From contig CM119371.1 of assembly GCA_051294905.1 (NCBI GenBank), positions 27,840,001 to 27,904,000 of the forward strand: a DNA stretch of 64,000 bases, written 5' to 3'. Numbering within the stretch: position 1 is the stretch's first letter; every line of letters begins with the position of its first letter. The DNA is from Botryllus schlosseri. Taxonomy: Eukaryota. The translations under genes were made by a program, and so were the position numbers. Below are positions 152 through 55,204 of this stretch, one piece after another. The notes under the pieces were generated by a model, which ran no database searches, was not told the DNA's origin, and saw only the letters and a program-made list of their open reading frames with translations.

Positions 152-275
152 GTGTTCGAAGGGAGATTTGATTGATCACTTGTCGACGTCAATCAGCAAG
201 TTTGAGTACAACACAATGTGCTGCGGCATGACTGTTGGCGGTGTACTAGGAATGACGTCCGAACAATACGAAAAG
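152..275 (+). CDS. Gene 1 exon (equivalent to coding exon 3)
   Basis: tag acceptor 149-151, gtagg donor at 276; 124 nt; CSKGDLIDHLSTSISKFEYNTMCCGMTVGGVLGMTSEQYEK. Confidence 0.92.
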
Positions 276-3200
276 GTAGGCCTTACCGGGTAACTGTTGT
301 GAAAAGATTTATGGTTAGCGGTAGTTTTCTAGTTGGCATTATAGTTGGTTTTGGGATTATAAAGTCGTATGTACAAATGTAGCATGCGCAATTGCAGTTG
401 ATCATTACGTCCCATGCACGTATCTACCTCATTTGATGAGGGATTTTTGACTGAATGAGAAATAAGCAAGCGGTTATTGAGAAGGAAATTACACACACCT
501 CTATATGATGGTTAGTAGTTTGTGAAATAAATGTATCGGTGGTGGTATCAGCCTTTGATTGTAGTGTGGTGAATGGTTATTTGCAGGGTTGTAATGAATC
601 GTGGCATGACTCGACTCGAGTCACGACTTTTTGGTGACTCGACTTGACTCGAGCCATTGTCTCAAATGCGTTAAAATGACTCGACTTGAGTGCATTTGTG
701 TATTAACTCGCTTGTACTCAAGTCATTGTGTATGACTCAAACCAAGTCGTATGACTCGAGACTAGGACGGCCATTACAGACATTTCATTTTAACTTCGAA
801 AATAGTAAGGGCACCACGGTATTGGTATTTCGTTCACCAGTCCTAATACTTTGAGAATAGGGCTGAGGGAAATTACGATATTACGAATGCGAACAATTCT
901 ATATTACTCGAGCGGAGTTGAAAAAAATGTTTGAACCGGATTGAACTTGAAACTGAACAGTTTACACAATGACGTGTACTCGGACTCGAGTCAAAGCACT
1001 ATGACTCGGAGTTGACCCTATACTAGCTGACTTGGACTCGGAATTGACTCGGTGGTGAATTGAAAATGGCTCTACTTGACTCGAGTCAAAACTATAAAAG
1101 TGAGATTGACTTGTGACTTCGAACCTTGTGACTTGGTTACAATCCTGCGCTCAAGTAATTAGTTCGAAAAGGTAGGTTTGATATAAGAGGTCGCATACTT
1201 TTAGTTTAGTGGTCAATCGTAAATGGCTAGGTCCGAGATTGAGACGACGTGTCTTCGCTACTAACCCAAAGGGACAGTTGAAACTACTTTGAAATTTTTG
1301 GGCAATCTTTGAAAATATATTCCGTCGGGGCTTACGAACTCGTAGGCTCCAGTCCCGTTACCGTGATACCACGACTAATTGACCCTGTTCTAATGACAAA
1401 GGCGCTCATGAAACTTATACAATCCGCCCCAAAACTATTTCCTACTATTTAGAATCCAAATTGTGAAAAGTAAGTGAAAATTATCAATTAGAAGTAAAAG
1501 TATTGCAACTAGGGCTGCATTTAACCGAAATAATCTTTTTTGAAAAATGTATTTTAAATAACTAATTTTTTTAACATTTGTGTAATTAAGCAATAATTGT
1601 GTAAATACTTTCGAACACACATATATATTGAGGCTATAAGCCTACGGCAGATTTGCACCCGATAGAGTCAACGTATACAATATGGAATGGTTAGAACCCT
1701 CGTAATTGTCGTCGGTTCAACAGTTATAGAACGTAGATATAGCATATAGAAAGTGTCCTCAGAGGACGCCCAAATGTCCTCTTTTTCGAAAATTTGTCGT
1801 CTCATTTGAAAATTTTGGTGAAATGTACGTGTAAATTGAACCGAGAGACAGGAAATCAGTACTCAAGTAACGGTCCGGTTCAGGTGGGTCTTTCGGGAAT
1901 TGAGCCAGAAAGATTACCTTTTCTTTTAGTCAACACTAAAATATTTAAGAGAAAAGTGGACAATATGGCAGTCAATCAAATCGATAAGATGATGACTTCG
2001 GGATAATTTTACCAATTTTTCCTGATTTTACTCCGGTATTGTAAGTCTGAAAATTTTGCAAAAGTTTCATCTTTTCTGTTTCCCAAAATATGGTAACGCT
2101 ACTATAATAAGTAGTAGGCAAAAGTCATACTCGAGTACCTCGAAAAAAATGGGAATGAGTAGACTACGTTACTGATCGCCACTGTGTATATCTCTGAATT
2201 GAGCATGTTGGACGATGCACCGTTATAACGTAAGCGAATGCCTTCTCAACAATTCTCCAGCAAGCCCAACATCTAAATAGAAATGCACGTGATTATCCCG
2301 TGGTGACACAGCAAAAGACGCGGCTCTACCCGCTACTTATTGTGTTTGTTATCATTATAGGCGAGCATATTGACACAGGAAATCGCTGCCTATTTCAAGG
2401 CAGTCGCACGTGCTGGACTTTTCACGGTTCACCGCCGCATAATACCAACAGGATTAATGTACTACATGGATAAGCGCGAATCCGTAACTGTTACAATAGC
2501 GGCAGTCTGGATACCAGACCTGCTGTGCGCTAATGTAAACACGCGGTGCTGTCGTTCTCCTAACTGTTGACCTGTACAATACCAAAGAACGCTAATGTGA
2601 CCTAATTTTACGGATTGAATGCCGGGCGTGTTCTCAAAGTCAATCTCATAATCAGATCAATCTTGATGTTATGTAATTAAGGTCAATGGATTCCCGAATA
2701 ACTTCTGGGGCTGGGGCGGTGAGGACGACGCGGTACACGCACGGATCAAGAAGAAAGGCCTGGAGATCGTACGACCGAATCCGGAGCTTGGCAGGTATCC
2801 GGTGTTACACAATAGAGCAGTGGTTCCAAACGTCCGGTCCGCCAAATGTATTTCAATTTTCAACTCAGTTTTTCAATTCGGATATAATATTAATTAGTAA
2901 TTGGAACGTCACAATGCTGTAAACGGTGTACCAAACTGGTCAAAGAACTAAAGAAGTGTTTCTAAGCCTTTACTAACATGCTGAACACTTACGTTAATCC
3001 GCAAGCCTTTGCGGAACCCCAAATTTTAGCTGAGTAACGAAAAAAAATCTGTAGCATTACACATTACAATATATTACTGTAAAAGACTCGCGCGCAAATT
3101 GCACTGTGCACCAACAACGTTGTGAACGAACAAACCCATTAAAACATGATTGTTACAAGAAAGGAAACGATTTTAGCGAATGAATATCGGAGATATGGAA

Positions 3201-6200
3201 TCGGCATTTCAAAAGGGCGGGGTTTCGATTTTGAACCGCAAACGTCGGCGCATACGGCACTGCTCACAACGTGCCGCCAAGGCATTCACAATTCGCCACC
3301 AGATCGCGACTAATTGATTGCAATCAACGATGGCGTGTCATCACAAATCATATGTATGAGTTGAATGTGTGTCTTGAACACCATGGAACCCATGGTTAAA
3401 GGTAGCCTATAATGATATGTGAAAGTTGTCTTATAATTACTGAAATGAAACATCAAATTTTTGAGTTATTTAGAAGTTTGGGGCGTATTTTTCTGCATCG
3501 TGTCGCAATATGGACGTGATGGTCTACTTTGAACTTGGAGTATAACTCAAAATCTTTCAAAAACTGTTTAAAAGTAAGCTAGAACGCGTGTAAGACCAGT
3601 AATATGTGAAATGTAAAATGGCTTTTTAAACAAAATCTGACCAAATTGGAATGTACAATGTAGCGACATCTAGCAAACGGCGAAGTCCGATTAGTTTTCA
3701 AAATGACTCAATTTTACATAAAATTCGATAGAATCAGAAGTCAGAACGCATAACATTTCTTACAAATGTAATTCGTTTCTTCAGAGTGCCGTAAGCCATA
3801 TCTTTGTCGCCATACATTCTTGGTCGATTTTGATTATTGGATGATCATCGGTCAGGACAATTTGATTTGAAATTTTACAAGCTGCACGGGTTGAGAGCCA
3901 CGATATCACAGTCACCTCGCCACGTCTTGCGGTGCGCGCAATCACGAGGGAAGTTCCTCATTTCACGCCACAAACACTTTTCATTCCAGATTCACGATGA
4001 TCAAGCACGATAGCGACCGGCTGAACCCTTACAACAATGGAGTTTATAAGGCGCTGCGAAAGTCAACACAAGCGTACGTTGAATGATAGCCATCGGCTTA
4101 AATTTCGAATATTCGTGTATGCAACAGCGGTGCAATCGGGCCGCGCACATGCATATAGGCCTACATATATATCGTAAATGCATGTGTGTAAAAGAGGTGT
4201 ATTTAACAAATCCCTTCTAGAGCAGCGGTTCCCATCTCCCAACCTTTTACATTCATTCTCCACTTCTGACTAATTACTATTCCTAATTCCACGTAACCAA
4301 AAACCTCTCAATCCGACAGTTGTTAATGATGCTCCCTCCATTAAAATTTGATACTCTTTTGATAGCGACGATTTGATATTTGTCGAATTTGACGCGCCCA
4401 AGAATATATAGTAAATACCCGCGTAGGGAAAACCAGTGATTGCGGAAGTTTTTGATAATTTATTTGACCAAAAGTGAATCCGAGGTCGAGATAACTATTT
4501 GGCCATATTTTTCTGTAACTTCAGTCGCAACGCTTCATCAAACTTTAAATTAACCAGAGTGATATGCGATGCCGGATGTCACGAACAAGCTATGTGCCTA
4601 TTTGAGTGCATTAAATATCTCTGACATTAGACATAGACTCATAGACGATCACCTTTTACTGCAACATATAACTTCTTATGTACTGGTATCGTGCACAATT
4701 CTGTGAACGCGTTAACGTATGTCATGCTGCTCGCGCCTAACGTGTTTGTGACCACGATATTGGCGTTCCAGAAATAAAAATGAGTTTCGGTGAACAACGA
4801 ACAATAAAATTAGTGACGTAGTCAGCCCAGAAAAATGAACTGGTAAACTTCATCGCAGTGTTGCGCTTCCGTACATCGTACGTAATTATTACATCTGTTG
4901 TTCCCTACCAGGAAGTCATGATTTCCCCTCAGGTTGGGAACCACTGAACTAGAGCGTGGCTGCAAATCTGCTCATCGCCACTTATGGTACCATAGTATCA
5001 TTCCAATGGGTAAGAACGAGTTAGATTCAACAATCCTTAGAGTGCAGGGCTTCTTAAAGTTTTTTGATCACGGATCTCTTCACGTTTTGTGGGTGGTCGC
5101 GCATACTCCCTAAATTTCAGAAGCCGATGATCAGGAAAAAAAAGAGGTTATCAGACCAAGCTCAATTCTACTGAGGCTATTCCATGCCTAAAATAAGTTA
5201 ACCAATGACTAGACAAGGTGGTCACAGTCCCACTCACGGCGTCATTGGCGAAGGAGAATAATCTTGTTTATAGTTTATTGATCATGTAGTTTAACATTGC
5301 CCTTTCACGAACCACGTATAGAGGTCCGTGCACCACAGTGTAAGAACAGCTGTTACAGGTATATATCCCGAGGGAAAGGGGGTTATGTTTACGTGTATGA
5401 CCGTTTTACATAGGGATGGGGTGGACGTGAGGTTCACGTTCGCGTTGTGTGTGTGAACCTCAGAAATTTAGAGGTTCACGTTCACAAACGAACCTTGGTA
5501 GGTTCTGCAGTGTGAACCTTTTTCATATATTAGAATCTCCACTTTATTATAACATCTTTGGTTGAAATGTATTGCATTTGAACTGCCGGCCACTGTATGC
5601 GTGGGGCTGGCAGCGTCAAAAAATCAACACGAAATGAGCATGCACCATGACAGTATCAAAAATGTTACTTGCTTCGTCACAAAAGTTTGCTCGAAATATC
5701 CAGCTTTCCCTTTGTGAATATTTAGTGACTCTCTGCTGTCACCTTGACCCGCAATCACTCAACATCAAGAGTGAAATACGCTACATCTAGGTAGTCAGCG
5801 AATGATGCTTATTCAACCAAGCAATGAAATTGATATCGTTGTCTGATGTACAAAATCTAGCAAGCGTGCTGGGTCAATCTTGGTTTCATATGTTTATTGT
5901 ATCATAAAAACCCTATCCGATCGATTGGGGTGTCGGTTACTGCTGTATAACTTGTTAATGGTATAATATCGGTAGCAAGTATAGGAACTCGTTTTACACT
6001 CTGCTCAATATCTGCGTAGCAATACTATGACGCCAAATACTTTGTCCGGTCTGGCCTAGATCGTTAAGGCATATGCTTATGTTCCCTTGCAAGTCCTCGT
6101 CGAAATTGTTAGACAAGCGATGGAAGATGTTGATTTTATGACATTATTATATCATTTGATTGCACCAGTTGATACGTTTGGCGACGTTTAAAACGTCAAT

Positions 6201-7722
6201 ATGTACTTCAGCATTGTGGCATTATGTGGCCGAGTCGTCGCTAGGTATCGTGCACCCTAATATAGGCTATCATTGCACTGAAATGTAGGGTTGCAATTAC
6301 CAATATGACGTCACGTGACGTCATGAGGTTCACTTTCGCATTTACACAGAACCTTTCAGAGGCTCGCACCATCACCAGTTTTACGTCTTCTTGGAATCGT
6401 ACATAAAAACCGAACCCACCCCACCTCCGGGATATCTCTTCGTAAGGATTGTTGTATTTACACGTTCTCACCCATTGGAATGGGTGTGAATGCAAAAATA
6501 TCATACCAGCTGGTACCGTAAGTCGGGGTCCAGGAAAGATCAATGTTGAAACCACCACTGTTAAAACTACAATACTACATTCTTCTTTATGACATTTGTT
6601 TGTTTTGAAGTGGTATTCATTGTGTTTGTCGACTTACTATGGTAAATTACACCAGGCCAATTTTTCTTCATATTTATTCCGTAGCTGCCGACTTGTAGCA
6701 CGGCCCACTTCTAGGCTGTTATAAAACACCGCTTCCATGGCTGAGATGGCGAGGAGGAGCCTAGGTAAACCTTCAACACTTAGGTAGGAATTCTGAAGTC
6801 TACCTCGGTCAGACTCGAACCCGCAACCCATTGGGGTTTCAGCTGTGGATTATACCACTACGATATCCCGCCACTTCTTTATGACATCTGACCTTTCACT
6901 TTTGACTTGTGCCTCTCTTTGTTCTTACTTCAGCGCTCACCACAGTTCACAAGCGAAAACGATGATTACATTTCTAGTCATTGAGTAGCTTGTTAGGACA
7001 TAATCATCACTGGGCGACAATGATCATCTTTATTTTGTTATCGTAGGATTACCATACGTTCTCCTTTATAGCGTCGACAGCCAAGCGATTGTATAGGCGC
7101 AACAAAAATGCCATAAATAACGCGAAATCTTGATTTCGGCGACTGTGACTGCAAGGATAACTAAACAATCGCGTACCTTAGAGCGGGTCTTCCAGGTGTC
7201 GAGTTGGAGAAATAACCTTTATTATTTTAAGTCAACAACAGTTTGTAAAAAATGTCCTCTTTCCGTATCCTAAAATATCGCAACCACGAGTTATCGGCTT
7301 CCATAATTTCGCGGCTATATAGGGTGCTCTCGATACCATCCAAAACTGATTAGGGGTCCGATCTAGAAGAAAGTTTAGGACACACCGCCTTCTGCTATGG
7401 TGGGAATACACGATTGTCGTATACAGTGTAGGACCCGAAAGCGGCTGAAATCCGACAGTGATATTGGAAAACAATTACAGACCTAAAACGATCTCGTCTT
7501 CCATTACTGACTACCTCTATTTGGCATCGTTAAAAAAACTTTCGCAGTCGTACGCACCATTTTTACTTATACATGCAAGGACATACAACTTATCTTATGC
7601 TGCGCACTTGCTTTAACAGAATGGACAACGACGGACTGAATAGCTTGGACACCACCGTCGAAGAGGTTGAAAAGTACGCCACTTTCGTTAAAGTGCGCGT
7701 TAATGTCGGGCGTCCGCAGTGA
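152..7722 (+). CDS. GT7 (beta-1,4-galactosyltransferase/GalNAc-transferase-like) gene 1, 3' part; join(152-275,2682-2794,3990-4073,7620-7722); 5' exons lie upstream of the window
   Basis: Four AG/GT-bounded exons join in frame: RCSKGDLIDHLSTSISKFEYNTMCCGMTVGGVLGMTSEQYEK / VNGFPNNFWGWGGEDDAVHARIKKKGLEIVRPNPELGR / FTMIKHDSDRLNPYNNGVYKALRKSTQA / MDNDGLNSLDTTVEEVEKYATFVKVRVNVGRPQ*. Exon sizes 124/113/84/103 match gene 3. NGFPN-WGWGGEDD and DGLNSL are GT7 hallmarks. Confidence 0.93.
584..1147. mobile_element. MITE with dense GACTCGAGTC subterminal repeats (gene 1 intron)
   Basis: Ends cagggttgtaa / ttacaatcctg; reverse-complement relative of 35938-36533. Confidence 0.8.
2682..2794 (+). CDS. Gene 1 exon (coding exon 4, WGWGGEDD)
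   Basis: aag acceptor 2679-2681, gtatcc donor at 2795; 113 nt; VNGFPNNFWGWGGEDDAVHAR. Confidence 0.92.
3990..4073 (+). CDS. Gene 1 exon (coding exon 5, metal-binding MxxH loop)
   Basis: ttccag acceptor, gtacgt donor at 4074; 84 nt; FTMIKHDSDRLNPYN. Confidence 0.9.
4223..4946. mobile_element. hAT MITE in gene 1 last intron
   Basis: cagcggttccca / tgggaaccactg; degenerate TSD ttctagag/aactagag. Confidence 0.7.
5411..6370. mobile_element. TAGGGATGGTGTGAAC-family MITE (one end lost)
   Basis: Colinear with 32813-33775. Confidence 0.75.
6596..6874 (-). mobile_element. tRNA-derived SINE, family 1
   Basis: Minus-strand head with A box (atcgtagtgg) and B box (ggttcgagtc); (caaa)n tail; 13-bp TSD ttctttatgacat (6583-6595, 6875-6887). 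Confidence 0.88.
7620..7722 (+). CDS. Gene 1 terminal coding exon
   Basis: ttaacag acceptor; MDNDGLNSLDTTVEEVEKYATFVKVRVNVGRPQ, TGA at 7720-7722. Confidence 0.92.
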
Positions 7723-30031: not shown

Positions 30032-30555
30032 ATGAAAATACTGCAATCATGGAACGCTCTTTTATTTGTAATCTTTGCCTTGTCCACCGTCTGTTTCTTC
30101 ATGTACTACACCGCCAGAAACTCGGAGATATTGAAAACGCAACGACGCTCCTTTACGAAGGAACAAGCCGAAAAAACTATTGCACCCTATGAGCCTTCGT
30201 TGCGAGACGCGATGACTGCGTCTCGAACAGTTCATTGCGACGAAGTTACAGAGATCAAATATCAAGTGCACGCCGGCGGTTTATCGGGAAAGATGAAAAT
30301 AGATACCGGCGCGTCGCAGATGAATTATTGGAATGATATAGGCGAGGTTTTTCCAGTCAATCAAAGCTTGACGTATATGGGGAAATACACGACCAAGTAC
30401 AATCACCTGGTGGACGACGCGGCGGTTATTCACGGGCCGCGGGACAGCAATCGCGTGCAGCGTATCGCTGTCATTATTCCCTTTCGTGACCGACATTCGC
30501 ATTTGAGGATATTTCTGGGGCATATTTTGCCTGTTTTGCGACGGCAGGGGAACAC
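30032..30555 (+). CDS. Gene 2 coding exon 1 (TM, stem, PFRDR)
   Basis: ATG at 30032 (MKILQ, aligns with MRILQ of gene 3); gtaagt donor at 30556. Confidence 0.92.
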
Positions 30556-36500: not shown

Positions 36501-39500
36501 AGTCTGGTCACGACTCGAGTCATTGCAACCCTGGCTATAATTCTAATCTAATTAGGAAAAAGTTGTGTAGTTATAATTCTAATTCCAGTTTAATTTTTTT
36601 TTCTTTCCTGAAAATGCTACAGGAGATCTGTATCGTGCGATCTGTACCAAACTTGGTGTACAGACGTTTGCCATTCTCATTTCCTACGGAAATCAACACT
36701 GATTTACTATGGAACATACTTGATTTTGTTGCATTTTTTTCTTAATACGGAATTTATTTCCATTTCCTGTTTTTTGCGAATTCACCAATTCTAATTCAGG
36801 TCTACTTTGCTACAACTTGCAGCTCTAATTCTAATCTAATCGATTGGCTGCGTAAAAGTGTAGTAGTGTATCATACTGGAACAGTGGTTCTCGACCTTTT
36901 TGTCTTCGCGGACCCCCTTTGGACCGTTACGGACCCCCGCCCCAAGTTTTAGTTCAAATTTAGCTCAATTATCGTGCGACCGTCGTCTGTCCTGTACAAA
37001 CATTACCTGCCGGGTATAGTGATAAACAGCAACAAAATGACTTTTCTTGAAATTAACACCATACTACATATGTAGAAATTGGAATGATATATATTATTTC
37101 AAAGCGAATTCTGTAGCTCCATTTCTTGAAATTCGCGATCCTGTTTTGAGAATCCGCGTCGTCGATTTGATAAGAACTAGTTCCGAGGAACGCTTTCGAC
37201 GGCACCTTTGGATATGATCGCAACAAAATTGGCAAATAGATTTTTATGAACATACAACGGTCAGCCTATAGTCGTTTCCATGTGTGGCGAGATAGCGTAG
37301 TGTTATAATCCACAGCTACAACACCAATCGGATGCGGGTTCCGGTCCGACCGAGAATTCCTATCTAATTGTTGAAAGTCTATCTTGGCTCCTTCTCGCCA
37401 TCTAATCCGCGTAAGCGTTGTCTTGCAAAAAGCCCAGAAGTGGGCCGTGCTACAAGTCGGCAGTTAGGGAATAAAAATGAAGCATATCGGCGTGGTGTAA
37501 ATGACCATAGTAGTCGACCAACACCATGAATACTACAAACAAGCAAACATCTAGCAGCTCAATATGAAGTTATTCTGGAATAGCGGTTATGTATGTTGCA
37601 GACGAAAATGGATTTACGCAAACAATTTTTTTCCAAAGCACCAATCAAGCATCTCTGGACAGCAATATGTTTGTATCAGTACAAACTATAGGCAGCACTA
37701 TCGGCTATTCTACAATTACGATGCGTTCGCACAATATATCGTAATACTACATCTCATTCTGTTTATGTGAATCCCGAAGTTTTAGCAGCTATGAAGCGAA
37801 ACTGCCTCGTGATTTCTCTAATTAAAAAAATACATACTAGGTTATCAACCATTTTGTAAATTCAGAGGTTTCGCGGAGAAGCACTGCGCTTAGGAATTAT
37901 AGCTGTACAATCTCTGCCAATTGTTTGCTACTCGCGAGAATGCCCGTACCAGTTTGTGTTTTGTTTCCGTAGATGTACAAAACGAGGCCTCATCGATCAC
38001 CTGTCAACTTCCATCAACAAGTTCGGATACAACCCCCTCTGCTGTGGTATGACTGTGGGCGGAGTGCTAGCGATGACGCCGGGCATATACGAACTGGTAG
38101 GATATATAGACAGGCTGAGGTTGTCAATGTATTTAGTGCTGCTAGTCAAGTATAAGACATCATACGTGGACAACGAGATAACTGGACATTCTAATTCGAT
38201 ATTCAAATTGTACAATGTGTTTTTTGTCTTGGTTCAGATGAAAATATAATCTGACGATTATTGATCGATTACAAACGTATAGCTATTAGGGCGGAGCATT
38301 GACCGGAGATGGATTGGATATCCGGCTGGATTTTATCATTTTTGGCCGGAGCCGGTTAGGAGCCGGATCAGTACTTTTTCCAATACCGCCGGAACCGAAT
38401 CAGTACTTTAGGACTGCCTTACCCCCTTCCACCCTCCAATCAAGTGTTAAAGTGAAACTTTCATAGAAATAATCCACATGCCAAGTCCAAGTTGGCATAA
38501 TTACTTCAGATAAGGGTTATGCTTGACCTTTGAGTTTTCAATTTCCTGTTTGCATTGTTCCAATAGTTCTTCAATACTATCCTGTGAGCAGATAACTATT
38601 ATCGGAGTTTTTCGGACCGCAGCACGGTCATTTCCAGAATTCGGCCAAGGAGTCGTACAGTAGTTGGAACAGACAATTTGGCTATCCGCTCCGCACTAAT
38701 TAGCTATCCACATGTGGCTTGATAGCGCTGTCATTAAATGCAGGCGTGTAGCGCAATGTTACGTTACTCCGAAGAATTTGATAATGGGGCAGTAAAGCTA
38801 GCCTTGTGATATGATGTAACAACATTCTCCGTCACGGTAATAATTGTCCCTGTACGGAGGAACTGATTGGACCGTGTGCCGCTGCCAGTAAAAAAATTAG
38901 GGTATGACTACCCTCGCGCGGGCAGCACGGATTCCTTTGAAAGCCGCTTACCTTTGAAAACGCGTGCTACTGAAGGAGGAATAAATTGCATATTAAAAGC
39001 TCCCCTTACGTCGGACCATAGATTTACTAACCTACGGATAGATACGCAACTCCCGCGTTATGCTCGGGCAAGCAGTCTCTCGTATTGCGGAGCAATCTAA
39101 AAGCAGCATAATTGGTAGTGCTGTAGCCGGCGACCAGAGCGCTGAAATTTGATATAATTGGTCTTAATCGAAGGCTATAGCTTGCGACACATGGTATGAA
39201 ATTTAATAAACCTATGGTATTTAACGAGAGCTAGTGTCACACTGATTCCAACAATACGAAGTAAATTCTTGTCAAGACAACAGAACGATATCAAAACAGC
39301 CCCAAATGTATGAAAATCTTCATTGCTCCGAACAATCGTTAGACGGAATTGGTCATTGTTTAGTTCATTGTTGTTGCGGCGGTGCGATTGTTTGAACAAT
39401 ACCTATTTTCAGACTTTGGAGGCTGTTTCGGCGTGGTTCCATTGTCCGACGAGATTTTAATGTGTGTTTTCGAAATCAGTGCGACACTAGCTTTCGATCA

Positions 39501-42500
39501 AGACCAATTCTATTAAATTTCAGCGCTCTGGTCGCCAGGAATAGCGTTACCAATTATGCCACTTTTAGATTATTCAGCAACAAGAGATACTGTTTGCCCA
39601 GCGTAACCGCCGGGAGTTTCGTATCTATCTGTACATCAGTAATCTATAATTCGGACTCCCCGGTCAATTTGGATAGAGGCTTGAATGAGTAATTATAGTG
39701 AACGGACACACCAAAGAATTGTGTTTTACGGATTTAGCCTTCAGCTGGCGTTGTTCGCTTTTTCCATAAATGCGTCTCTGCCCGCTCAAACCCCTTCCCT
39801 TTCAATTCCGACTGTATTATGTTGAAATATTACCCAGTGAAAATACCGTTTTAGCCCTTGCAGCCGGGCGGCTGAAGTAATACTGTGTTTTATGAGTTAC
39901 TGTAATATGTTAACCCTATGTGTTTGTGTTACACAGTAATACAGTATGCAGTATTTGATGAATCGTGTTATTTCGAAATACTGTATAATATAGCTAACCT
40001 GAAGATATAAGTTTTGTCGATAAGGGCCAACAGCGGGCTATTGGTAATGCGTGAATGCGATTTTCCGCTTAATTCGGTCAAAAGTGGACGGTACCAACGT
40101 GTCCGAATTAAACGGAGTCGATTGTGGTTAAGTTGTGGAATCAGCCTAGCGTTCGATTTAAATTAGCTTTTGCATCATAGCTGAACGGATTTCCGAATAG
40201 CTTTTGGGGATGGGGTGGTGAAGACGACGCTTTCAACGCACGGATCAAAAAGAAAGGTCTGAAGATAGCCCGGCCGAATGCGGAGTTGGGGAGGTATCTT
40301 GCGGTAATATTGTTATAATCGCCGTTGTGTATACAGTGATGCATATCGCCTTTGCTGGCTTTATGCATCCCGTACAATAAATCGCAGGTTTCTTCAAAGT
40401 GGTCAGCGTTGCTATTACTTACTGCAATTTATACATGACTATGAGCCGTTACTCTTACGTTGGTGAAATTGTGTCGAAATTTACTCTTCACAGAAATAAT
40501 ATATAAAGGTCTATAACCTGCAGAACTAAAGATATATCCTTGTCTGATGGTTATTCGTCCATGAGTTTGTCGCTAGTATGCAAGAATCTCTCTCACGGTT
40601 TTCAGAAGCGGCCTTGGGCGGCTTTAGACATAACTAATATCTCACATTTTAACATTCATATACATAAATTGACTATAACTATTCATTGAAAAAAACAACA
40701 ACTGTCGTCTATTATATTTTTATTGCATATTTAAGGTCAATCACAGCCGCAAAAAGGCTACCTTGGAGCCGTGGTTTGGAATCACTGCAAAACCTTTGTT
40801 GGACTGCTGTTATGTTCATGCATTTACGTTGATGTCGTTTGGCTCGCATTTGTAGCCTATCGGACTAGTAATTAGTGCCAATCATTATTTCCTCGTGTTC
40901 CTTCCTTTGTATTGAACCCAGTGTTCTGTGATGCATTTCCAATTTTTTTATCGGAATGTTAATGTTGTTGTTGTTGGTATGGAATGTTTGGTGCTCGGCA
41001 GCAATGGCCTTGTGCACCAGGTCAATTAGTTATATATGCATTATTCCATTGAATCTCTCTTCCGGACAACAAAACAAATTCTATTGCCGAGGAAATCGTG
41101 GCGGGATGGGCCTATGTTAATGTGAATATGCTGTCCAAGAAAAATATATTGCATTCTTATTGGAAGTTAGTTGTATATGTTTGCTGTTCCACTATTACCA
41201 TCGAGCGTAGTAATCTGTTTGTCGCCTATTTCGATTGTTTGAAAGATAAAAACCATCTCTCTTTCTCTAGGTTCACGATGATCCATCACGGGGCCGACAG
41301 CTTGAATCCTCATAACGGCGGAAGGCTTCCCGCAGTGCGAAAATCAACAGACGCGTATGTTATAATAATGTTGTACGACAGTAATTGCTTTAGGGTTAAG
41401 GAATTGGAATTGGTGGCTTTAACGTCCAGAATACCATTTCGTCTTTGGACCTATTGAATCGGCTTGTAAAAATGCTCCTGACTCCGACCCCTTTTGTCGT
41501 ATGATCGGGCAAAATGCTCTGAAATGTCACTAAAAGTGTTAATTATAAAGAAATCTCTATAATACAGTAGGCTAGCTATGTCGAAATGGGTTCGCTTGCA
41601 CCGCAGAAGCAGGGATACATAGACTAGATTAGATTCTAAACGAGGGCTTCTTAACCAGAGGTCCGTGGACTCCTTGGGCACCAAATCAGGTGGCATTTTT
41701 GACTTGAGTATATACGCTATCAAGAGCCCAAACTTATTTGCAAACCAACAAAATGTGGAATATTTTCTTGTCGGATTTTCTTCGTGCCGGGTGCGATTTC
41801 AAGTTGATGGTCATTTTAATTTTAATATAGCTTCAATCAGAAGTTGTGTGGAAAATTGAGGGGGGTACGAGAAATTTTATTGAACGCTCAATGGATACCA
41901 GCAGTAAAAAGTTTAAGAAACACAGTTGTGGACTCTAAATCAGAGGCCCCAAAAACGCTTTTAAGGCGATCCATTTAAACAAATACTACGGATCAGTCAA
42001 ATCTTGCGAGCCAAAGTGATAGTGATAACATTATAACTGATGAAATAGTTCCGAAATTTTGACGCAAAATGAGTTTAAGCGCCGGGTAAAATGTCTTGAA
42101 TACGGGTCGTTCTGCATATATTTTCAAGTTAGGTAGTCTCCTCACGATTTTATTCATATATATTGGTATTTGTTTATCTGGGATGCAATATGCCTGAAAA
42201 CAAGTGACGGGAGTTGTAAACTACTGAACTAGATATACAGCCTATGCTACCCGCGCGATAGCGCAGAAGCTTTCTTGCTAAGTTCTCTGGAAAAGCATGC
42301 TTGGGCTCAATGCTTGGCTGATTCCAACCCGCAAGCGGAAAAAGTATCAAATTGGGATAATCTGCTTCACATAACGAATCGAGCCTGTTAATGAATTCTC
42401 GCCACTTCGCAACGACGCGCCGACGAACCGCATCCAAATATAACTTTTCACTTGACAATATTCAGTATTTCAGGATCAAAATACCGTTAAAGTAGATGCA

Positions 42501-42862
42501 GTATCAAACCATGTTAATGTACATTAGTGGAGAAAACCCAATTCAGCACTTTAGAAAAGTAAAAGTAGTTCGTTTTGGCGGGGGGTGCGTAACACAAGTT
42601 TGGTAAACAATAATCCAGAACAAGGTGGTCGTTTGATTGAAGAACTATCCGAGTCGTTTCGACTCCTTCCTATCTTACATTTCAATACAACCTTGCGTCA
42701 ACATTAACAATAAACTGACGGAAATTGAAATTTCACCGCGCGCTAATGGTTTGCAGGCTGGAGGACGACGGGCTAACTAATTTGGACACAAGTGTCGAAG
42801 AGGTGTGGATGTACGCGACGTTCGTGAAAGTCCGGGTTAACGTCGGAACTCCTCCGAAGTGA
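30032..42862 (+). CDS. GT7 glycosyltransferase gene 2, complete, 374 aa type II membrane protein; join(30032-30555,35422-35595,37973-38096,40181-40293,41271-41354,42757-42862)
   Basis: Six GT-AG exons total 1125 nt with no internal stop. Short N-tail plus hydrophobic TM (ALLFVIFALSTVCFFMYY), stem, RIAVIIPFRDR, VVEQ..FNKGRLMN, FQDVD (DxD), NGFPNSFWGWGGEDD, MIHH, DDGL. Confidence 0.95.
31343..32590. mobile_element. hAT element nested in 30967-34612
   Basis: caggggttctca / tgataacccctg; TSD gtatagtg (31335-31342, 32591-32598). Confidence 0.88.
32813..33775. mobile_element. TAGGGATGGTGTGAAC-family MITE inserted into an older copy of its own family
   Basis: Perfect TIR; TSD ctagctac (32805-32812, 33776-33783); opposite orientation to the host. 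Confidence 0.9.
35422..35595 (+). CDS. Gene 2 coding exon 2 (DxD motif)
   Basis: cag acceptor 35419-35421, gtattg donor; 174 nt; FSIFVVEQAGADTFNKGRLMNSGF...PFDCFIFQDVDTLIENDNLLYR. Confidence 0.93.
35938..36533. mobile_element. GACTCGAGTC-repeat MITE
   Basis: cagggatg / caaccctg; TSD gctataat (35930-35937, 36534-36541). Confidence 0.88.
37284..37548 (+). mobile_element. Family 1 SINE
   Basis: gtggcgagatagcgtagtg head; ggtgtaaatgaccatagtagtcgac...caaacaagcaaa tail; interrupts a hAT MITE whose uninterrupted counterpart is at ~28990-29010. Confidence 0.85.
37973..38096 (+). CDS. Gene 2 coding exon 3
   Basis: tag acceptor, gtagga donor; 124 nt; CTKRGLIDHLSTSINKFGYNPLCCGMTVGGVLAMTPGIYEL. Confidence 0.93.
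39018..39647. mobile_element. Second MULE-like MITE copy (gene 2 intron 3)
   Basis: Same long TIRs as 21893-22362. Confidence 0.8.
40181..40293 (+). CDS. Gene 2 coding exon 4
   Basis: catag acceptor, gtatct donor; 113 nt; LNGFPNSFWGWGGEDDAFNARIKKKGLKIARPNAELGR. Confidence 0.93.
41271..41354 (+). CDS. Gene 2 coding exon 5
   Basis: ctttctctag acceptor, gtatgt donor; 84 nt; FTMIHHGADSLNPHNGGRLPAVRKSTDA. Confidence 0.92.
42757..42862 (+). CDS. Gene 2 terminal coding exon
   Basis: ttgcag acceptor; LEDDGLTNLDTSVEEVWMYATFVKVRVNVGTPPK, TGA at 42860-42862. Confidence 0.92.
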
Positions 42863-47770: not shown

Positions 47771-47873
47771 TCACTGCGGACGACCGACATCAACTCGGAC
47801 TTTAACGAAGGTGGGGTACATCCAAACCTCTTCGACAGTTGTGTCCAAACTATTCAGCCCGTCGTCATCCATT
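47771..47873 (-). CDS. Gene 3 terminal coding exon
   Basis: tttccag acceptor; MDDDGLNSLDTTVEEVWMYPTFVKVRVDVGRPQ, TGA at 47773-47771. Confidence 0.92.
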
Positions 47874-50800
47874 CTGGAAAGACAAGAGAGTAGTATAACA
47901 TTCATCATTTGGACGACTCCACGCGTCAGTGTTCGACTTTATGCGATCAGTAAGACTCATCAAATTTAAAATCACAATTGCCTGCTGTTTTGGTGTTGAT
48001 GGTGTTTTCGAGATCATTGGTAATGTTACATCACGACGATGTTTTTTTATATGACTAGGCCTATTGAGCTGCCGACATGAAACACTGTCAAAATTTATTT
48101 CTGCCGTATTGTATGACAGTGGTTGGCAACCTATGGGCGGCGACCAAGTGGAGTCACCTCCACATTTTCTGGGGTTGCCATAACTCACGATATTCAAGAC
48201 GAATGCTTATTTTGTTGTAGTTCGAAACATTCAACTGTGCTTTACAAAACCCTAATTCCAACCATAACGGGGCGTTGCGCTTCAAATATATGATGTGGTC
48301 TCAAATTGAAGTTGGGAGTGTGAAAAACTTTTGACAGCAACAATTTTCCTCAAACGTTACTGTATTCGAATTGTGGTTAAAAGATGTTCTCGAGTGGCCC
48401 TGGTGTACTTCATAAATGATCACTTAACGTCGATCTTTGGGGCGATTGCACTTTTATTTGAGACCACACCATATTTACAGCGCAGTGTGACTTTAACAAT
48501 AACCCAATTTCTGATAACCATCATAACATACTCTTTTGTTGACTTTTGCAGTGCTTGAAGCCGTCCTTCGTTATGAGGATTCAACTTGTCGACTCCGTGT
48601 TCTATCATCGTGAATCTAGAATGAAACGATACGCAGCCTGAAGGCAGAAGTTTCTCCGTTGGGGATATGAACTCAAATGCATGTGCTGAAGACATATCGC
48701 CAAAAACCGCTTATCATCAAAACTACAAGCGGAAGTCACTTGACAATTATATATTACGTGAAAGTTAAGCAGGTTTCGCAAATATTGCTGGCACGGTTAT
48801 TCCAAGTTCAAATCCATGCTCATCTTAAATAAGTATTAATATATGCATTCTCTTGGATATGATACCTAAGTCCAGTTGTCAATTCAGGAAAATAACATTT
48901 CATTAGACTTTCATTATCAGTCGAGTGGATAAGTAGGCCTACTCATGACGAGACATACTAAATTGGTTATCCCGGAAACTTCGAATATGTTTTTTCATGC
49001 GACACACAAAAACTTATACAGATATAATATGGCATAATAAGACAGGATACCTGCCCAACTCCGGATTTGGCCTGGCAATCCTCAAGCCTTTCTGCCTGAT
49101 CCGTCCGTACAATGCATCGTCTTCACCACCCCATCCCCAAAAGTTATTCGAAAATCCGTTCAACTATCATAGAAAGTATTGATTAATTTGATTGCGAGGC
49201 TGATTCGCAACACTACTGTCTTCATCGGGTCAACTTTATCAGTGGGGTGGGCGTAAGGTACACCTTACCCGCCCTAAGATACACGATGTTAATACCGTGA
49301 CATCATATAACACGTTCACTACGCCACAGTGGATGCGTGATCTCATGCAATAGTAGCAGGAATAGGACGTTATATACTGTGTCCCTGATGTTTTTGTGTC
49401 AGATACGCCGACTCATGACAATCGTATACACACGATCGTGCATATGCATACCATGAGTGAATGGTGTGAATATGCCGCTGGACAAGGAAGGTGCGAAAAT
49501 AACCTAGAACGACTTTTAAAGCCTTGCACCACCCTCCATGCTATCTCGGAAATAGGAAACGCCAATTGCGAAAGACACATATAGCAGTTCTTCTGATCAG
49601 GTCATCGGTCTGATCCGGCTGGGGATTGAACCCAACGACTTACCGATGAAGACGCTCCACCACAACGCTATCCTGTCGGCGGACCTTGTCTTGTAATATA
49701 TATACGCTCCCTTTTCATAGTAGAACACTTTCACACTTTCAGTAGCCTACACCATCAAGCTGGTTATATATGTGTGGATACATTTTACGGGCTTCTCTGT
49801 CATGGAGTGGCATTACTATGGAATGATTTCGTGCCTTGATAGCTGCATTTTTACCATCATCCCAATGGGACACTAATCCTGTTTGTGACCTACCTTTTCG
49901 TATTGGTCCGCTGTCATCGCAAGAACTCCGCCCACAGTCATGCCACAGCACATCGTGTTGTAGTCAAATTTGCTGACGGTCGTCGACAAGTGATCGACGA
50001 TATCTCCTTTTGAACACCTACGAAAACGACACGCGTATACTATTCGAGGCATACTCATGAATAGCAACGAATGGCACCGATGATACAACTATAACTATCT
50101 AGTATCACACTTTCATTGCTGATACATACTTGACTACTTACACTACAATGCTACATGATATCGATCAAGACAACATTCGGCCTACGGTTTTGAAAAGTCC
50201 TATAGTTAGGGAGCCATAACACGCGACTACATGTAAAATCAAGCACTCTCTCTGCGTAAATATTGTCTATTTACACCCCAATGATGGTACAAGAAAACAG
50301 AACCTATACCTTTGAAACCATACCGTGGTATAAATCACAACATTCTAGTCCAAATGATGCTCGGCTAACTAGAATTAGTACAAATGATGTACGAGGAAAC
50401 GTATAAATATATATTCATATATGCATTAGACCAGGGTAACCAACACACGGACCTGATTTGAGATTTCGGAAAAACGCCTCGTAAATCATTTTGAAATGCT
50501 AAAATTGATTTCAGCGTACAAATATCGTTGTCGTTCTTCAAAATAAGCTATATTCCGCCGTGCCGGACATCTCCATTCTTCATTAGCTGATATGGCTTCG
50601 GCGATGGCAACAGCATTCGATATTTCGATGGAGGAAGAACTAGCTGATATTAAAGGGAATATTGCCTTGAAGTGCAATGGTGCATACACTGCCAATACCG
50701 AGACGCCTAGAAAACGATTGCGGGCTTCCACACAAGATCAAGCTTTGTGAGTCTTTTTCCAGCAAGTACTATACATTGTATAGCTAACTATAATATCGAT

Positions 50801-53800
50801 TTCTTTGTCAGTGAAAAGATAGCGCCCGGCTTCTTCATCAGTAGGTCGTGGATTCGATCCCCTGTCTGGTCAGACCAATGACCTGATTGGTAGCACTGAT
50901 ATCCATGACTTCTGCGCTTGACGCTCATGCATTTCTAAGATAGCATGGCCTCCTCGCAACCTCATCCGCGCAAGCGGTTTCTTACAAGAAGCCTAGAGGT
51001 GGGCCGTGCTATAAGACGGCATAGTTACGGAAAATAATGAAGATTATCGGCCAGGTGTAAATGACCATAGTAGTCGACAAACACCATGAATACCTCAAAA
51101 CAAACAAGCAAAGATAGCATGGCGGAGTGGTGCAAGACTTAGAGGGGCTATATCTGCACCTTCCTTGTCAAGGGGCATATCCACATCATGCACTCGTCGT
51201 GTTTATGTGCTTCATGAGTCGGTGTGTATGCCGCAAAAACATCAAAGACAAAAAAATAACCTTCTTACGTCCTTGATCGTGCGTCGTTCACAGTTCAGGA
51301 AAGAATGAAAGTGATGATCGTGATATATTTTTTTGTTTTAATAATATTTCTTTAATAAAACACTATTTATTTTGTGGTAACTATGCCCGTCGCCCATGAT
51401 AGAGAGCACAGCGTTGTACTGGGGCGATGTTTTAAAAACGTGGTTGTCAAACTGTGTGGCCTGTTTTATCTTGATATTGCATCCATGCGGCCCGCGGCTT
51501 CAACGAAATTTGAAAAGTGGCTCTCGTCGCGTTTTTTATTGGCGACCCTTAATTTAGAACAAGGTTTTAAAGAACTAAACTAGCGATTGAATATATATAG
51601 AGAAAGAAAATCGCCGATTGATAATGATGATTAACTCCAATTGGCTCTAAATGGAAACCCACAAATATGGAAATGCTGTTCAGTAGCTAACCAGTCCGTT
51701 GAAATATTAGATCGACATCCCGGGAACAGGGTTTCTGAATTCTGAAGTATAGGTTCTGGTTTCATGTAGCACTTTATTGGTGCGAATGCACATGAACTGG
51801 CAAACAAGGTGGATATATGATAGGATGAGTTAATAGCATATAGTATGCGTACACTGCACTGTACTACATGCACGCATATATGTTTATAACCATACATCTA
51901 AAACTGGATAATGAGCATGCGCAGATTAATTAGCAATATACCTGTACAGCAGGTCATCGTTCTCAATCAGCGTGTCGACGTCGTGGAAAATAAAGCAATC
52001 GAATGGCATGTTGAGTTGTTCTCCGACGTCACGTGCGTACTTGAATCCCGAGTTCATGATGCGCCCTTTGTTGAAAGTTTCATTTCCAATTTGCTCGACC
52101 ACGAAGATGCTGAACCTAGAAGACAATGTTGATGTTGAATTTCGACACGGCTAAAGATGTGACTCATACAGACGAGAAACGGTCGGTAGATATTCGGCGT
52201 CTGGTCGTCAATTATATAGCTCGCAGAAGGACGATAATAATCACTAATCTGCAGAGATCCAAATATCATCGCAGATGTCGATGTTTGATTTTGCTCAGAG
52301 ACAAAGTTTAAACGTTTCTGCTAGGCAAAGAGTTAGGCACACCTAATAAATACCCCTTGACCGATTTATGATTTGAAATTGTGTACTCTTCAATTAAAAC
52401 ATTACGATTTCCATATCAAATCAGTACAACCTAACGGCTGCAGACTTAACTCATGACAGACCGGTTTGACGTTACTCGTAACGGCGGTTTGTAATATCCG
52501 TATTGTAGGGGGACTGTAGTGTAGATGTATACGTGCGTTCAACTACGGGAAGCGTTCTTCGTTATGGCTTAGTGTTCATAGTGACTTACTTTCCCATGAT
52601 CCCACTTGAACCGGCTAGCAAGCGTTATTCCGCAATTCTTTACACTAGACTTAAATATGCTAACCGAACATGTTCGTATGGGCTCAAGATAGTGTCAAAA
52701 TTGTTGGAAGCAGTAAGCAGAAGTAATGCGTATTCACCAGTGTTGGAATGACTCGAGTCATGACCTGACTCGAGTCCCCTTTTTCGTATGACTTGTCTTG
52801 ACTCGAGTCATTTTGCATAAATGAATAGACTTGAATTGACTTGATTCGACGCTTCAAAAATGCGCATTGACTCGTGACTCGAAGTAATATCGACGAGTCA
52901 ATTTCACGTCATCAAGTAATCGATGCCGACGAAACCACTCTATCTTGTAAAACTTCGGATTGTTAACGATACGCTTATTTGACCTGTGAGTGCAACCAAT
53001 CACTGAATGATTGTGCGTTTTACCGAACCTCTATTTTTATATCACAAATAAAGTGATCGCTAACGCCGTGATCGAAGCTTACAGATTACGTTGTCGTAAA
53101 CTAGTAGTAAAGTAATATACCACCAATGTGTATCTGTTCTATAGATTGCTCTCAATGCCCACCTTGGCCAACCCTTTTGTATGATTTAGATCGAATGAAT
53201 ATCGCTCATACGTTTATAATTATATATCATGGATATGCAGGGGGTAGGTTATTGCGCCATATCATTTTTCCAATTTCAAATGTTTCGTTTTTTATCTTTT
53301 TTTGGCTGACTTGGGCTATTCTGCTACTTGCGTATAGTTTAGCAGCGCAGCGCCTTTTTGTATGTATGATCAACTCTTTTTTCGTTATTCAATTCAGAGT
53401 AAATGGGCACCCCATCTATATTTGAAACAGGAAAATACAACGACTTTGAATGATGTCTGGTACGTTAAAAATTCAACTTGACGTGATTAGTGACTTGACT
53501 CGTGACTTGACTTGACTCGAGTCACCTTTGAAAATCAAGTGCATTGATTTGACTCGAGTCGAAAGTGGAATGACGCGAGATGACTTGTGACTCGGAGGTA
53601 GTGACTTGATCCCAACGCTGGAATTCACACTCAAACGGTAGCACACTACTACTGCGCCCACGCAATAATTATACCGCGGTATAAATAAAACACAGCATTT
53701 TAATCAAATTGAGGGCTGACAAATTAGAATAAGCACAATTGGCGTAGGAAAGAACGTTACGCACGTAGGATTTATAACCATGCTGTGCACACCATGAATC

Positions 53801-55204
53801 AATCGGAGCTGCCTCTTACGAAAAGTAACCAAAGGCCACGCTAGAGATTGAATATTATATACACTGCAGAAAAAGAAAAACGACGACTGATAAATAGGGC
53901 AAGTTTTTGCATCTTTTACAACTTTTTCACAGCTTCCGACAGCGTCTCAGACACTCTGAATTCGTGTAGTACGATTTCTTAAGCTGTTTGTAGGAATCAG
54001 GGCGAGGGTGAGTTATCGCTTTGCTGTTTGGCTTTCGGGGGAAATTATTTCTGCATTGCATTATTTCCGGAAAAAATGTAATTTTCGGCGTTCTTGCCAG
54101 ACCGCCCGTGAAAGGAAAAAGCACCAGATTTGACAGCCTTGCAGGAGCTAACAGCGAAATGCTGTCATGCTGCCACGTTTCAAACCTAAATAATATAAAA
54201 GGGTATGCATGATCGATTGAATAGCGAAGAAAGAAACGGAACGAAACGTGTATCTCCTATCCTAATAATTAAAAAAAATATATTTAAATGCAACTTTTTA
54301 CTGTAAATTTTGCTAAGAAACCCTAAGATAACAGGGTTTCGCATTCAAGAGGTAGGTTCGGTGTTCGCTGATTGTGTACGATCTTCTGGGTTTGAATAGA
54401 CATTTTTGTTAAAAATGCGACCTCCACCTTCGCTAAGTCGGTGCTGTTAGGGGGTCTTGCCCAAACAGCCCAAAGTAACGCCCTGCGATGTACCACTGTA
54501 CTGTACTGTACGATTGTAAAAAAAGAACGAAAAGCGTCTATGACAGTAAGACAGTCGAGAGATCAAAGTTGTGCATTGTGTGTTGACAGCCAAAAATTAT
54601 TAGAACGTTATAATATACGTTTCTACGATCGTTCAGTATTGCGATCAAAGCCACAGGGGAAATTGCAAGTATTGTGCTACTACCAACCATTCAAAGTCAT
54701 ATTGACGCGATAATGTAGCACTCACGTGTTCTTCTGTCGACATAAAACGGGAAACGTGTGTCCCACAAATATTCTCAAATGCGACTCTCGATCCCGGAAG
54801 GGAATAATCAGTGCGATTCGTTGCACACCTGCGCTACTTTGCGATCCATGAATAACTGCCGCTTTGTCCAATATGGTATTGAGCTCGTTGGTATCTTTCT
54901 CTTGATATGCCCGGCTTATATTGATAGGATAATCCCCGCCTAGGTGATTGCAATATATCCTCACCGATGTGTTCGTATCTACGATCATCTTTCCCGATGT
55001 AGCACCGGCGTGAACGTGAAAGTTTATCTCGGGAATTTCGTTGCATTGAACTATTCGGTTGAACGCTTTACTATCTCTCGAAAAGCTTCGTGGTACTGTC
55101 AATGTTCCGGTGTTTCCGGCGATATAGTACACGAGGAAGGATATGATTGACAAGATAACAATTCCAGACGACAAATGTGCATTCCGCGACTGTAGTATTC
55201 TCAT
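47771..55204 (-). CDS. GT7 glycosyltransferase gene 3, complete, 358 aa; complement(join(47771-47873,48532-48615,49051-49163,49894-50017,51942-52115,54726-55204))
   Basis: Six GT-AG exons total 1077 nt in frame. TM (GIVILSIISFLVYYIA), RIALIIPFRDR, FNKGRIMN, FHDVD, NGFSNNFWGWGGEDD, MIEH, DGLNSL. Same intron positions as gene 2. Confidence 0.95.
48532..48615 (-). CDS. Gene 3 coding exon 5
   Basis: 84 nt; FTMIEHGVDKLNPHNEGRLQALQKSTKE. Confidence 0.92.
49051..49163 (-). CDS. Gene 3 coding exon 4
   Basis: 113 nt; LNGFSNNFWGWGGEDDALYGRIRQKGLRIARPNPELGR. Confidence 0.93.
49365..49680 (-). mobile_element. tRNA-derived SINE, family 4 (Meta-domain-like)
   Basis: Minus-strand head ccgacaggatagcgttgtgg...gggttcaatccc, then gatcagaccgatgacctg; reverse-complement relative at 50815-51275. 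Confidence 0.7.
49894..50017 (-). CDS. Gene 3 coding exon 3
   Basis: 124 nt; CSKGDIVDHLSTTVSKFDYNTMCCGMTVGGVLAMTADQYEK. Confidence 0.93.
50815..51275 (+). mobile_element. Family 4 SINE interrupted by a family 1 SINE
   Basis: ggattcgatccc B box, then ggtcagaccaatgacctg; body resumes after 51123. Confidence 0.7.
50950..51110 (+). mobile_element. 5'-truncated family 1 SINE
   Basis: Family 1 3' half; 13-bp TSD aagatagcatggc (50937-50949, 51111-51123). Confidence 0.85.
51942..52115 (-). CDS. Gene 3 coding exon 2 (DxD)
   Basis: 174 nt; FSIFVVEQIGNETFNKGRIMNSGF...PFDCFIFHDVDTLIENDDLLYR. Confidence 0.93.
52738..53620. mobile_element. GACTCGAGTC-repeat MITE
   Basis: cagtgttgg / ccaacgctg; TSD gtattcac/gaattcac. 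Confidence 0.82.
54726..55204 (-). CDS. Gene 3 coding exon 1
   Basis: ATG at 55204, gtgag donor at 54725; MRILQSRNAHLSSGIVILSIISFLVYY...RIALIIPFRDRESHLRIF. Confidence 0.92.

What the first reader, a model, noticed from the sequence alone, without database searches (positions are those of the whole stretch)
152..55204. Cluster of three intact GT7 paralogues defining an atypical beta-1,4-glycosyltransferase subfamily
Seen: three paralogues (+,+,-) with the same intron positions and exon sizes (124/113/84 in all three; 174 in genes 2 and 3) and no disabling mutations in the visible exons, although the introns share no obvious similarity beyond independent TE insertions. Established: GT7 enzymes (bovine B4GALT1 numbering) use DxD/M344/H347 for metal and donor, Y289 as donor gate, and WGWGGEDDD plus R359 for the GlcNAc acceptor. 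The metal and catalytic core is kept here, but the specificity positions are changed in the same way in all three genes. Inference: a lineage-specific expanded GT7 clade making a non-LacNAc glycan. The cluster may continue upstream of the window.
Basis: partly seen in the sequence, partly recalled or inferred. Interest (0 to 1): 0.7.

Follow-up and report, generated by a model that had tools for sequence, protein, structure and literature searches.

The report
Sea-squirt sugar transferases with rebuilt pocket
Three neighbouring intact genes, apparently of a sea squirt, encode relatives of the enzyme that adds galactose to our glycoproteins, and their changed sugar-binding pocket likely makes them add a different sugar, probably N-acetylglucosamine.

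Summary
The three GT7 paralogues are real. All 13 visible introns are GT-AG, the frames are open, dN/dS is 0.15-0.31 over the catalytic part, and an intron-less contig fits gene 2's model. Metal and catalytic residues are kept.

The odd residues are mostly not a local invention. K228, T289 and V290 (bovine B4GALT1 numbering) are in all 18 fetched members of a tunicate clade, named ones from Styela, Clavelina and Ciona; C286 is in 17. That clade holds with those columns removed (100/98). Only D320A is private to the window genes: 3 of 345 domains.

The most telling change, which the finding does not name, is R228K. In the bovine enzyme R228K shifts the donor from Gal towards Glc, and a small residue at 289 admits an N-acetyl group. 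Best reading: Golgi inverting beta-1,4-transferases using a gluco-configured donor, most likely UDP-GlcNAc. Nothing was assayed, and D320 is reported essential in the bovine enzyme. New variant of a known family; moderate interest.

The parts
152..7722 (+). Gene 1, last four coding exons: 152-275, 2682-2794, 3990-4073, 7620-7722 (stop included); 140 aa visible. The 5' exons with the DxD lie upstream of the window. T289, A320, V359.
30032..42862 (+). Gene 2, complete coding region, 374 aa: 30032-30555, 35422-35595, 37973-38096, 40181-40293, 41271-41354, 42757-42862. Hydrophobic stretch near residues 10-28, stem, GT7 domain. K191=228, D220/D222=252/254, C256-C257, T260=289, E288-D289-D290-A291=317-320, M315=344, H318=347, R330=359.
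   Evidence: intron-less contig and reads
47771..55204 (-). Gene 3, complete coding region, 358 aa: 55204-54726, 52115-51942, 50017-49894, 49163-49051, 48615-48532, 47873-47771. K176=228, D205/D207, C241-C242, T245=289, A276=320, M300, H303, R315=359.
   Evidence: a contig over exon 1 in run X1
37973..38096 (+). 124-nt exon carrying the clade's rebuilt acceptor/donor loop (CCGMTVGG, one residue longer than bovine loop 1); copies at 152-275 (+) and 50017-49894 (-).
40181..40293 (+). 113-nt exon carrying WGWGGEDDA (D320A); copies at 2682-2794 (+) and 49163-49051 (-). The Ala codon has a different third base in each gene.

Best explanation
The three genes are tandem copies of a tunicate branch of family GT7 that likely encode Golgi enzymes predicted to transfer a gluco-configured sugar, most probably N-acetylglucosamine from UDP-GlcNAc, in beta-1,4 linkage onto a terminal GlcNAc-like acceptor. 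Shown: intact genes, purifying selection, an N-terminal hydrophobic stretch, and conserved DxD, M344, H347, W314, E317, D318, D319. Inferred from B4GALT1: Mn2+ is held by D254/M344/H347, the long loop closes over UDP-sugar, and D318 deprotonates the acceptor's 4-OH for an inverting displacement. Inferred from bovine mutants: K228 favours an equatorial donor 4-OH (Glc/GlcNAc over Gal/GalNAc), and T289 opens room for a 2-acetamido group. Inferred more weakly: Y286C and the varied 359-363 helix change which carrier glycan each copy accepts; D320A is tolerated.
For: K228 in genes 2 and 3 and in 18 of 18 other clade members; T289 in all three and 18 of 18 (three pairs among the 18 are near-duplicates). 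Bovine R228K changes donor preference from Gal to Glc, and Y289L broadens it to GalNAc (PMC7185993, passages). Ile at 289 gives GalNAc transfer in insects, with minor GlcNAc transfer (PMC7943597, passages). A B4GALT-homologous beta4-GlcNAc-transferase exists in Lymnaea (PMC8699351, passages). Acceptor contacts F280, W314, D318, D319 are kept in all three and R359 in two (contact list from PMC6198961, passages). 14 of 14 chosen core columns are invariant among the paralogues versus 74 of 126 others (Fisher p 0.001). dN/dS 0.15-0.31. A model of the nearest relative P0005 matches B4GALT1 at Foldseek E 1e-32.
Against: No member of the clade was found assayed. The rule rests on point mutants of one bovine enzyme. 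D320 is reported essential in bovine B4GALT1 (PMC4202792, section 11) and is Asp, Asn or Glu in 342 of 345 domains; only the window genes have Ala. Y285G (human numbering of Y289) abolished detectable activity (PMC6198961), so a small residue is not always tolerated. K228 is common (181 of 345 domains) and also occurs in fish and jellyfish proteins off this branch. The link to the protostome K228/L289/V290 group (support 94) was not recovered once the signature columns were dropped. The Lymnaea GlcNAc-transferase was not seen by name in any search listing, so its residues were not compared. The rebuilt loop is poorly predicted (pLDDT 60-64).
Confidence: 0.45

Rival explanations
1. They are beta-1,4-N-acetylgalactosaminyltransferases making LacdiNAc, like BRE-4 and the insect enzymes; K228 is neutral in this background.
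For: A non-aromatic residue at 289 is the known hallmark of GalNAc transfer. Databases label many K228/L289 proteins bre-4-like, though these are automatic names.
Against: The nematode BRE-4-like group in the tree carries R228, I or L at 289, F290 and Y286, and the window genes do not group with it. R228K disfavours galacto donors in the bovine enzyme.
Confidence: 0.2
2. They are ordinary beta-1,4-galactosyltransferases, on GlcNAc or on another acceptor such as glucosylceramide; the clade is simply the tunicate counterpart of B4GALT1-6.
For: B4GALT1 is the best solved match by sequence (P0002, E about 1e-62) and by fold. A Ciona protein named beta-1,4-galactosyltransferase 1 (P0130; Y286, Y289, but K228) nests inside the clade. 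Enzymes with Ile at 289 keep weak Gal transfer.
Against: Y289 and R228, the two known Gal determinants, are both replaced. All 42 rows with the vertebrate-type R228-A229/Y289-F290 pattern lie outside this clade where they were placed in the trees (only part of them were included).
Confidence: 0.15
3. D320A makes these three copies weak or inactive as transferases; they are kept as sugar-binding or partner proteins in the Golgi.
For: D320 reported essential in the bovine enzyme; Ala in 0 of 342 other domains. Gene 3 had depth 0-0.1 over two exon-bearing bins in the three raw-read runs laid.
Against: The catalytic base, D319, E317 and the metal ligands are invariant. Ala is kept in three lineages with dS 0.55-1.3 between them. 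13 other domains carry Asn or Glu there.
Confidence: 0.1
4. They use another gluco-type donor or acceptor, for example UDP-xylose, or a non-GlcNAc acceptor tied to tunic polysaccharides, with the Cys-Cys loop reshaping the site.
For: Loop 1 is rebuilt and one residue longer; Y286 and F360 contacts are lost; R359 varies within the clade (Arg 10, Val 7, Ala 1 of 18).
Against: No positive evidence names such a substrate. F280 and D319 are kept.
Confidence: 0.1

Closest known systems
Vertebrate B4GALT1 (bovine/human; PDB 1o0r, 1nf5, and the R228K mutant 1yro)
   Same: GT7 domains, fold, type II layout, DxD, M344, H347, W314, E317, D318, D319, K279, F280. The R228K mutant entry is the top match by sequence and by fold.
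   Different: R228K, A229G, L255T, P257I, P285C, Y286C, Y289T, F290V, D320A, F360L/Y; a one-residue longer loop 1; a separate branch in the tree.
Invertebrate beta4GalNAcTs (BRE-4-like, Drosophila and Bombyx GalNAcT)
   Same: Non-aromatic residue at 289.
   Different: The BRE-4-like rows fetched keep R228, Y286, F290 and a Pro-Tyr loop; the window genes do not group with them. The characterised C. elegans, Drosophila and Bombyx sequences themselves were not in my set.
Lymnaea stagnalis beta4-GlcNAc-transferase and beta4-glucosyltransferase activity
   Same: Precedent for a B4GALT homologue using a gluco-configured donor. I recall that the GlcNAc-transferase has Lys at 228 and Leu at 289; this is recalled and comes from no call.
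   Different: Its sequence was not retrieved, so kinship is untested. The Lymnaea protein that was fetched (P0137) is an uncharacterised K228/L289/V290 protein on another branch.
Uncharacterised tunicate GT7 clade (Styela clava P0002, P0006, P0007, P0009; Clavelina P0010, P0024, P0030, P0126; Ciona P0012, P0276, P0200)
   Same: K228, T289, V290, nearly always C286; one branch at 100/98; 45-60% identity in the catalytic domain.
   Different: All 18 keep D320; the window trio has Ala. Databases give them automatic B4GALT1/2/4-like names.
B4GALT7 (xylosylprotein galactosyltransferase)
   Same: GT7 fold and WGWGxED motif.
   Different: Far weaker match (E 6e-25 against about 1e-62 for B4GALT1; Foldseek 3e-17 against 1e-32).

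Membership tests
GT7 (B4GALT-like) | Pfam Glyco_transf_7N and 7C domains | tested here: met
   7N on exons 1-2 of genes 2 and 3; 7C on exon 4 of all three
GT7 (B4GALT-like) | DxD, M344, H347 metal site | tested here: met
   DxD of gene 1 lies outside the window
GT7 (B4GALT-like) | GWGxED motif with catalytic base D318 | tested here: met
GT7 (B4GALT-like) | B4GALT1-type GT-A fold | tested here: met
   model of nearest relative P0005 (56-60% identical in the domain), not of the window proteins; Foldseek E 1.4e-32
GT7 (B4GALT-like) | Type II membrane anchor | tested here: met
   best 19-residue hydropathy window at residues 10-11, mean 2.0-2.1; Golgi location itself not tested
Vertebrate B4GALT1-4 (LacNAc synthases) | Y289 donor gate and R228 | tested here: not met
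   T289 and K228
Vertebrate B4GALT1-4 (LacNAc synthases) | Third Asp D320 | tested here: not met
   Ala in all three
Vertebrate B4GALT1-4 (LacNAc synthases) | Acceptor contacts F280, Y286, R359, F360, I363 | tested here: inconclusive
   F280 kept; R359 kept in 2 of 3; Y286C; F360 to Y/L/L; I363 to L/V/L
Vertebrate B4GALT1-4 (LacNAc synthases) | Groups with them in a tree | tested here: not met
   midpoint-rooted, no B4GALT5/6/7 rows
BRE-4-like beta4GalNAcT | Ile or Leu at 289 with R228 | tested here: not met
   T289, K228; separate branch
Lymnaea-type beta4GlcNAcT | Shared residues and clade with the characterised enzyme | not tested
   sequence not seen by name or 55
any of the above | Donor, acceptor and linkage by assay | not testable with these tools
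   needs recombinant enzyme
Tunicate K228/T289/V290 clade | Signature residues and monophyly without those columns | tested here: met

The most novel reading that the evidence does not exclude
Tunicates have turned most of their B4GALT-type genes into a family of Golgi beta-1,4-GlcNAc or glucose transferases with a Cys-Cys acceptor loop, building chito- or cello-type chains on glycoconjugates in the closest invertebrate relatives of vertebrates. The window trio is a sub-branch that works without the third Asp held essential in B4GALT1, and its copies differ in acceptor.
Probability: 0.3. Interest if true: 0.7.

Novelty: new variant of a known kind. Interest (0 to 1): 0.42.

Why it matters
Databases and an ascidian genome paper (PMC7540406, section 21) treat ascidian GT7 genes as galactosyltransferases and tie them to tunic galactan. 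If this clade uses UDP-GlcNAc or UDP-Glc, those labels are wrong for a whole chordate lineage, and it supplies natural tests of the 228/289 donor rule drawn from bovine mutants. An active enzyme with Ala at 320 would also revise what is held essential in GT7. The same K228 state marks a large unassayed protostome group, so one assay series bears on many genes. If they are plain GalNAc or Gal transferases, this is an ordinary tandem expansion.

Tried and rejected
No whole genome is held, so the upstream part of gene 1 and further copies could not be sought. A tblastn of the three proteins against the window showed no fourth copy. Pfam on 104 stop-to-stop frames of 78 aa or more found only GT7 exons, a retroelement remnant and two sub-cut-off matches. 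Exons 3 and 5 alone found no meaningful PDB match; numbering went through P0002's alignment to bovine B4GALT1. No RNA holder was listed by the run index; raw reads laid mostly on repeats, and the joint table showed no exon-exon joint among the rows printed (169 not shown). Gene 1 and exon 1 of gene 2 were outside the stretch laid. The search for the Lymnaea GlcNAc-transferase through a K228/L289 query did not list it. A sister link between the tunicate clade and the protostome K228/L289/V290 group was considered and left open (94, not recovered). Four look-ups of earlier findings returned nothing. Two structure-function reviews were not held; nothing of them was seen. PMC7948508 and PMC8724618 (passages) gave nothing relevant. 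Rejected: pseudogene cluster; B4GALT7; a subfamily private to this locus; R359 lost in all three.
Full report
Observation. A six-frame motif scan and a self-comparison of the window found three sets of GT7 exons. Reading them base by base gave gene 1 (+, 152-7722, last four exons, 140 aa), gene 2 (+, 30032-42862, six coding exons, 374 aa) and gene 3 (-, 55204-47771, six coding exons, 358 aa). All 13 visible introns are GT-AG. Pfam matched 9 of 12 exon translations above cut-off. Over the catalytic or shared part dN/dS is 0.15 (g1/g2), 0.16 (g1/g3) and 0.24-0.31 (g2/g3), with upper bootstrap bounds of 0.26-0.53; the g2/g3 stem gives 0.51. No fourth copy was seen. No genome is held, so the upstream extent is open.

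Transcription. I laid 4 of 24 listed runs on 35350-55340. In run X1 (contigs; RNA is the tool's guess) one 677-nt contig lies on exon 2 and exon 6 of gene 2 with 323 nt between, exactly the modelled 2+124+113+84; the middle pieces were not among the rows printed. A 615-nt contig covers exon 1 of gene 3 and runs on for 68 nt. Raw RNA reads of X7 cover gene 2 exon 4 (8 reads at 40258) and exon 6 (10 reads at 42826); X9 had 2 reads at exon 6, X11 none at these places. Gene 3's exon 4-5 bins had depth 0-0.1 in X7, X9 and X11. The four coding differences printed for gene 2 are all synonymous; 606 rows were not shown.

Relatives. The 124-nt exon found 2 proteins among 57 candidates, one a Styela clava GT7 (P0002). 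Searching with it gave further Styela, Clavelina and Ciona proteins first, so the window is very likely an ascidian; this is inference from homology. A profile of 12 such proteins searched against 1.84 billion representatives added a few more, named ones being Clavelina and Ciona savignyi. Of 359 sequences held, 345 covered the domain and were aligned; 14 were dropped. The set is redundant and shaped by my queries.

Residues. Bovine numbering came from the PDB alignment of P0002. Kept in the window genes: P187, F188, R189, R191, F226, D252, V253, D254 (genes 2 and 3), and K279, F280, G291, G292, W312, W314-D319, M344, H347, D350 (all three). Changed: R228K, A229G, L255T, P257I (genes 2 and 3); P285C, Y286C, Y289T, F290V, D320A (all three). 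R359 is Arg in genes 2 and 3 and Val in gene 1. K228, T289 and V290 are in 18 of 18 other clade members and C286 in 17 of 18; all 18 keep D320. Across 345 domains position 320 is Asp 329, Asn 9, Glu 4 and Ala 3, the three being the window genes. The 14 core columns I chose are invariant among the paralogues, against 74 of 126 other columns (p 0.001).

Trees. With all columns (67 rows, quick method) the window trio is one branch (100) inside the tunicate clade (99), and that clade joined a protostome K228/L289/V290 group at 94, unstarred. With the signature columns and loop removed (72 rows, careful method) the trio holds at 100/99 and the tunicate clade at 100/98, but the link to the protostome group is not recovered. 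A Ciona protein named B4GALT1 (P0130: K228, Y286, Y289) nests inside the clade. Both trees are midpoint-rooted and lack B4GALT5/6/7 and the characterised invertebrate enzymes. K228 goes with V or I at 290 in 148 of 181 domains, R228 in 7 of 163, but kinship inflates this.

Structure. An AlphaFold model of the nearest relative P0005 (mean pLDDT 78.7, 12-sequence alignment) matches B4GALT1 at E 1.4e-32, the R228K mutant entry first, B4GALT7 at 3e-17. The rebuilt loop scores only 60-64, so nothing is shown about the adjacent cysteines.

Mechanism. By homology these are type II Golgi, Mn-dependent inverting enzymes. For the donor I rely on passages of PMC7185993 (R228K changes Gal to Glc; Y289L admits GalNAc) and PMC7943597 (Ile at 289 gives GalNAc transfer, with minor Gal and GlcNAc transfer). 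K228 together with a small residue at 289 predicts UDP-GlcNAc, or UDP-Glc. A snail B4GALT homologue transfers GlcNAc, and a beta4-glucosyltransferase activity is known there (PMC8699351, passages). That the snail enzyme has K228 and L289, and that GT2 glucan and chitin synthases carry Lys at the matching place, are recalled and come from no call. For the acceptor, F280, W314, D318, D319 and in two genes R359 remain, while Y286 and F360 are lost (contact lists: PMC6198961, passages; PMC4202792, section 11). Against: D320 is reported essential, Y285G kills the human enzyme, and no clade member was found assayed. I give about 0.45 to a gluco donor, 0.2 to GalNAc, 0.15 to Gal, 0.1 to inactive and 0.1 to another substrate.

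What is in print. Ten full-text searches listed no paper describing or assaying this clade; most subscription papers are not in the library, two key reviews were not held, and I read only listings for most hits. PMC7540406 (section 21) compares ascidian beta4GalT genes by name and links them to tunic galactan; its supplementary figures, which I did not read, may show the family. Ciona and Oikopleura beta4GalT genes are notochord-expressed (PMC10043435, PMC3034685, passages); which genes these are was not determined. Chito-oligomer antennae are reported from a nematode (PMC6935376, passages); the Ciona N-glycans summarised in PMC9300197 (passage) name none.

Verdict. A real tandem trio, under purifying selection and with transcript evidence for two genes, in a tunicate-wide GT7 clade that I did not find described, with a predicted change of donor and one private change at a supposedly essential residue. 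New variant of a known kind; interest 0.42.

Noticed in passing
window 12714-17604: A 4.9-kb foldback structure: arms of about 1480 nt at 12714-14194 and 16125-17604 are 98% complementary, with a second 502-nt pair (14919-15420 and 15631-16132, 97%) inside; no coding match. Possibly a young non-autonomous DNA transposon or an assembly feature.
   Followed up: partly
window 56264-57796 (+): 3' part of a non-LTR retrotransposon frame with RNase H and a zinc-binding domain, interrupted by one TGA at 57296-57298.
   Followed up: partly
window 49440-49490 and 51146-51254: Short repeat pieces in introns of gene 3 draw hundreds to over a thousand RNA reads with loose ends, some A-rich; likely abundant SINE- or MITE-like repeats transcribed elsewhere.
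   Followed up: no
P0130 (Ciona intestinalis F6WUK5): Named B4GALT1 but nests inside the tunicate clade and carries K228 with Y286 and Y289; by the bovine rule it would be a glucosyltransferase candidate.
   Followed up: partly
P0137, P0313, P0293, P0337, P0347 and others: A well-supported protostome GT7 group (100/99) with K228/L289/V290 spans molluscs, annelids, nemerteans, chelicerates, crustaceans, some insects and tardigrades, under automatic bre-4-like or B4GALT-like names; 116 of 345 domains show this pattern.
   Followed up: partly
window 37897-37972 and 50094-50018: The 3' end of intron 2 is conserved between genes 2 and 3 (65% over 80 nt, z 7.5), more than other intron ends; residual homology or a splicing element.
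   Followed up: partly
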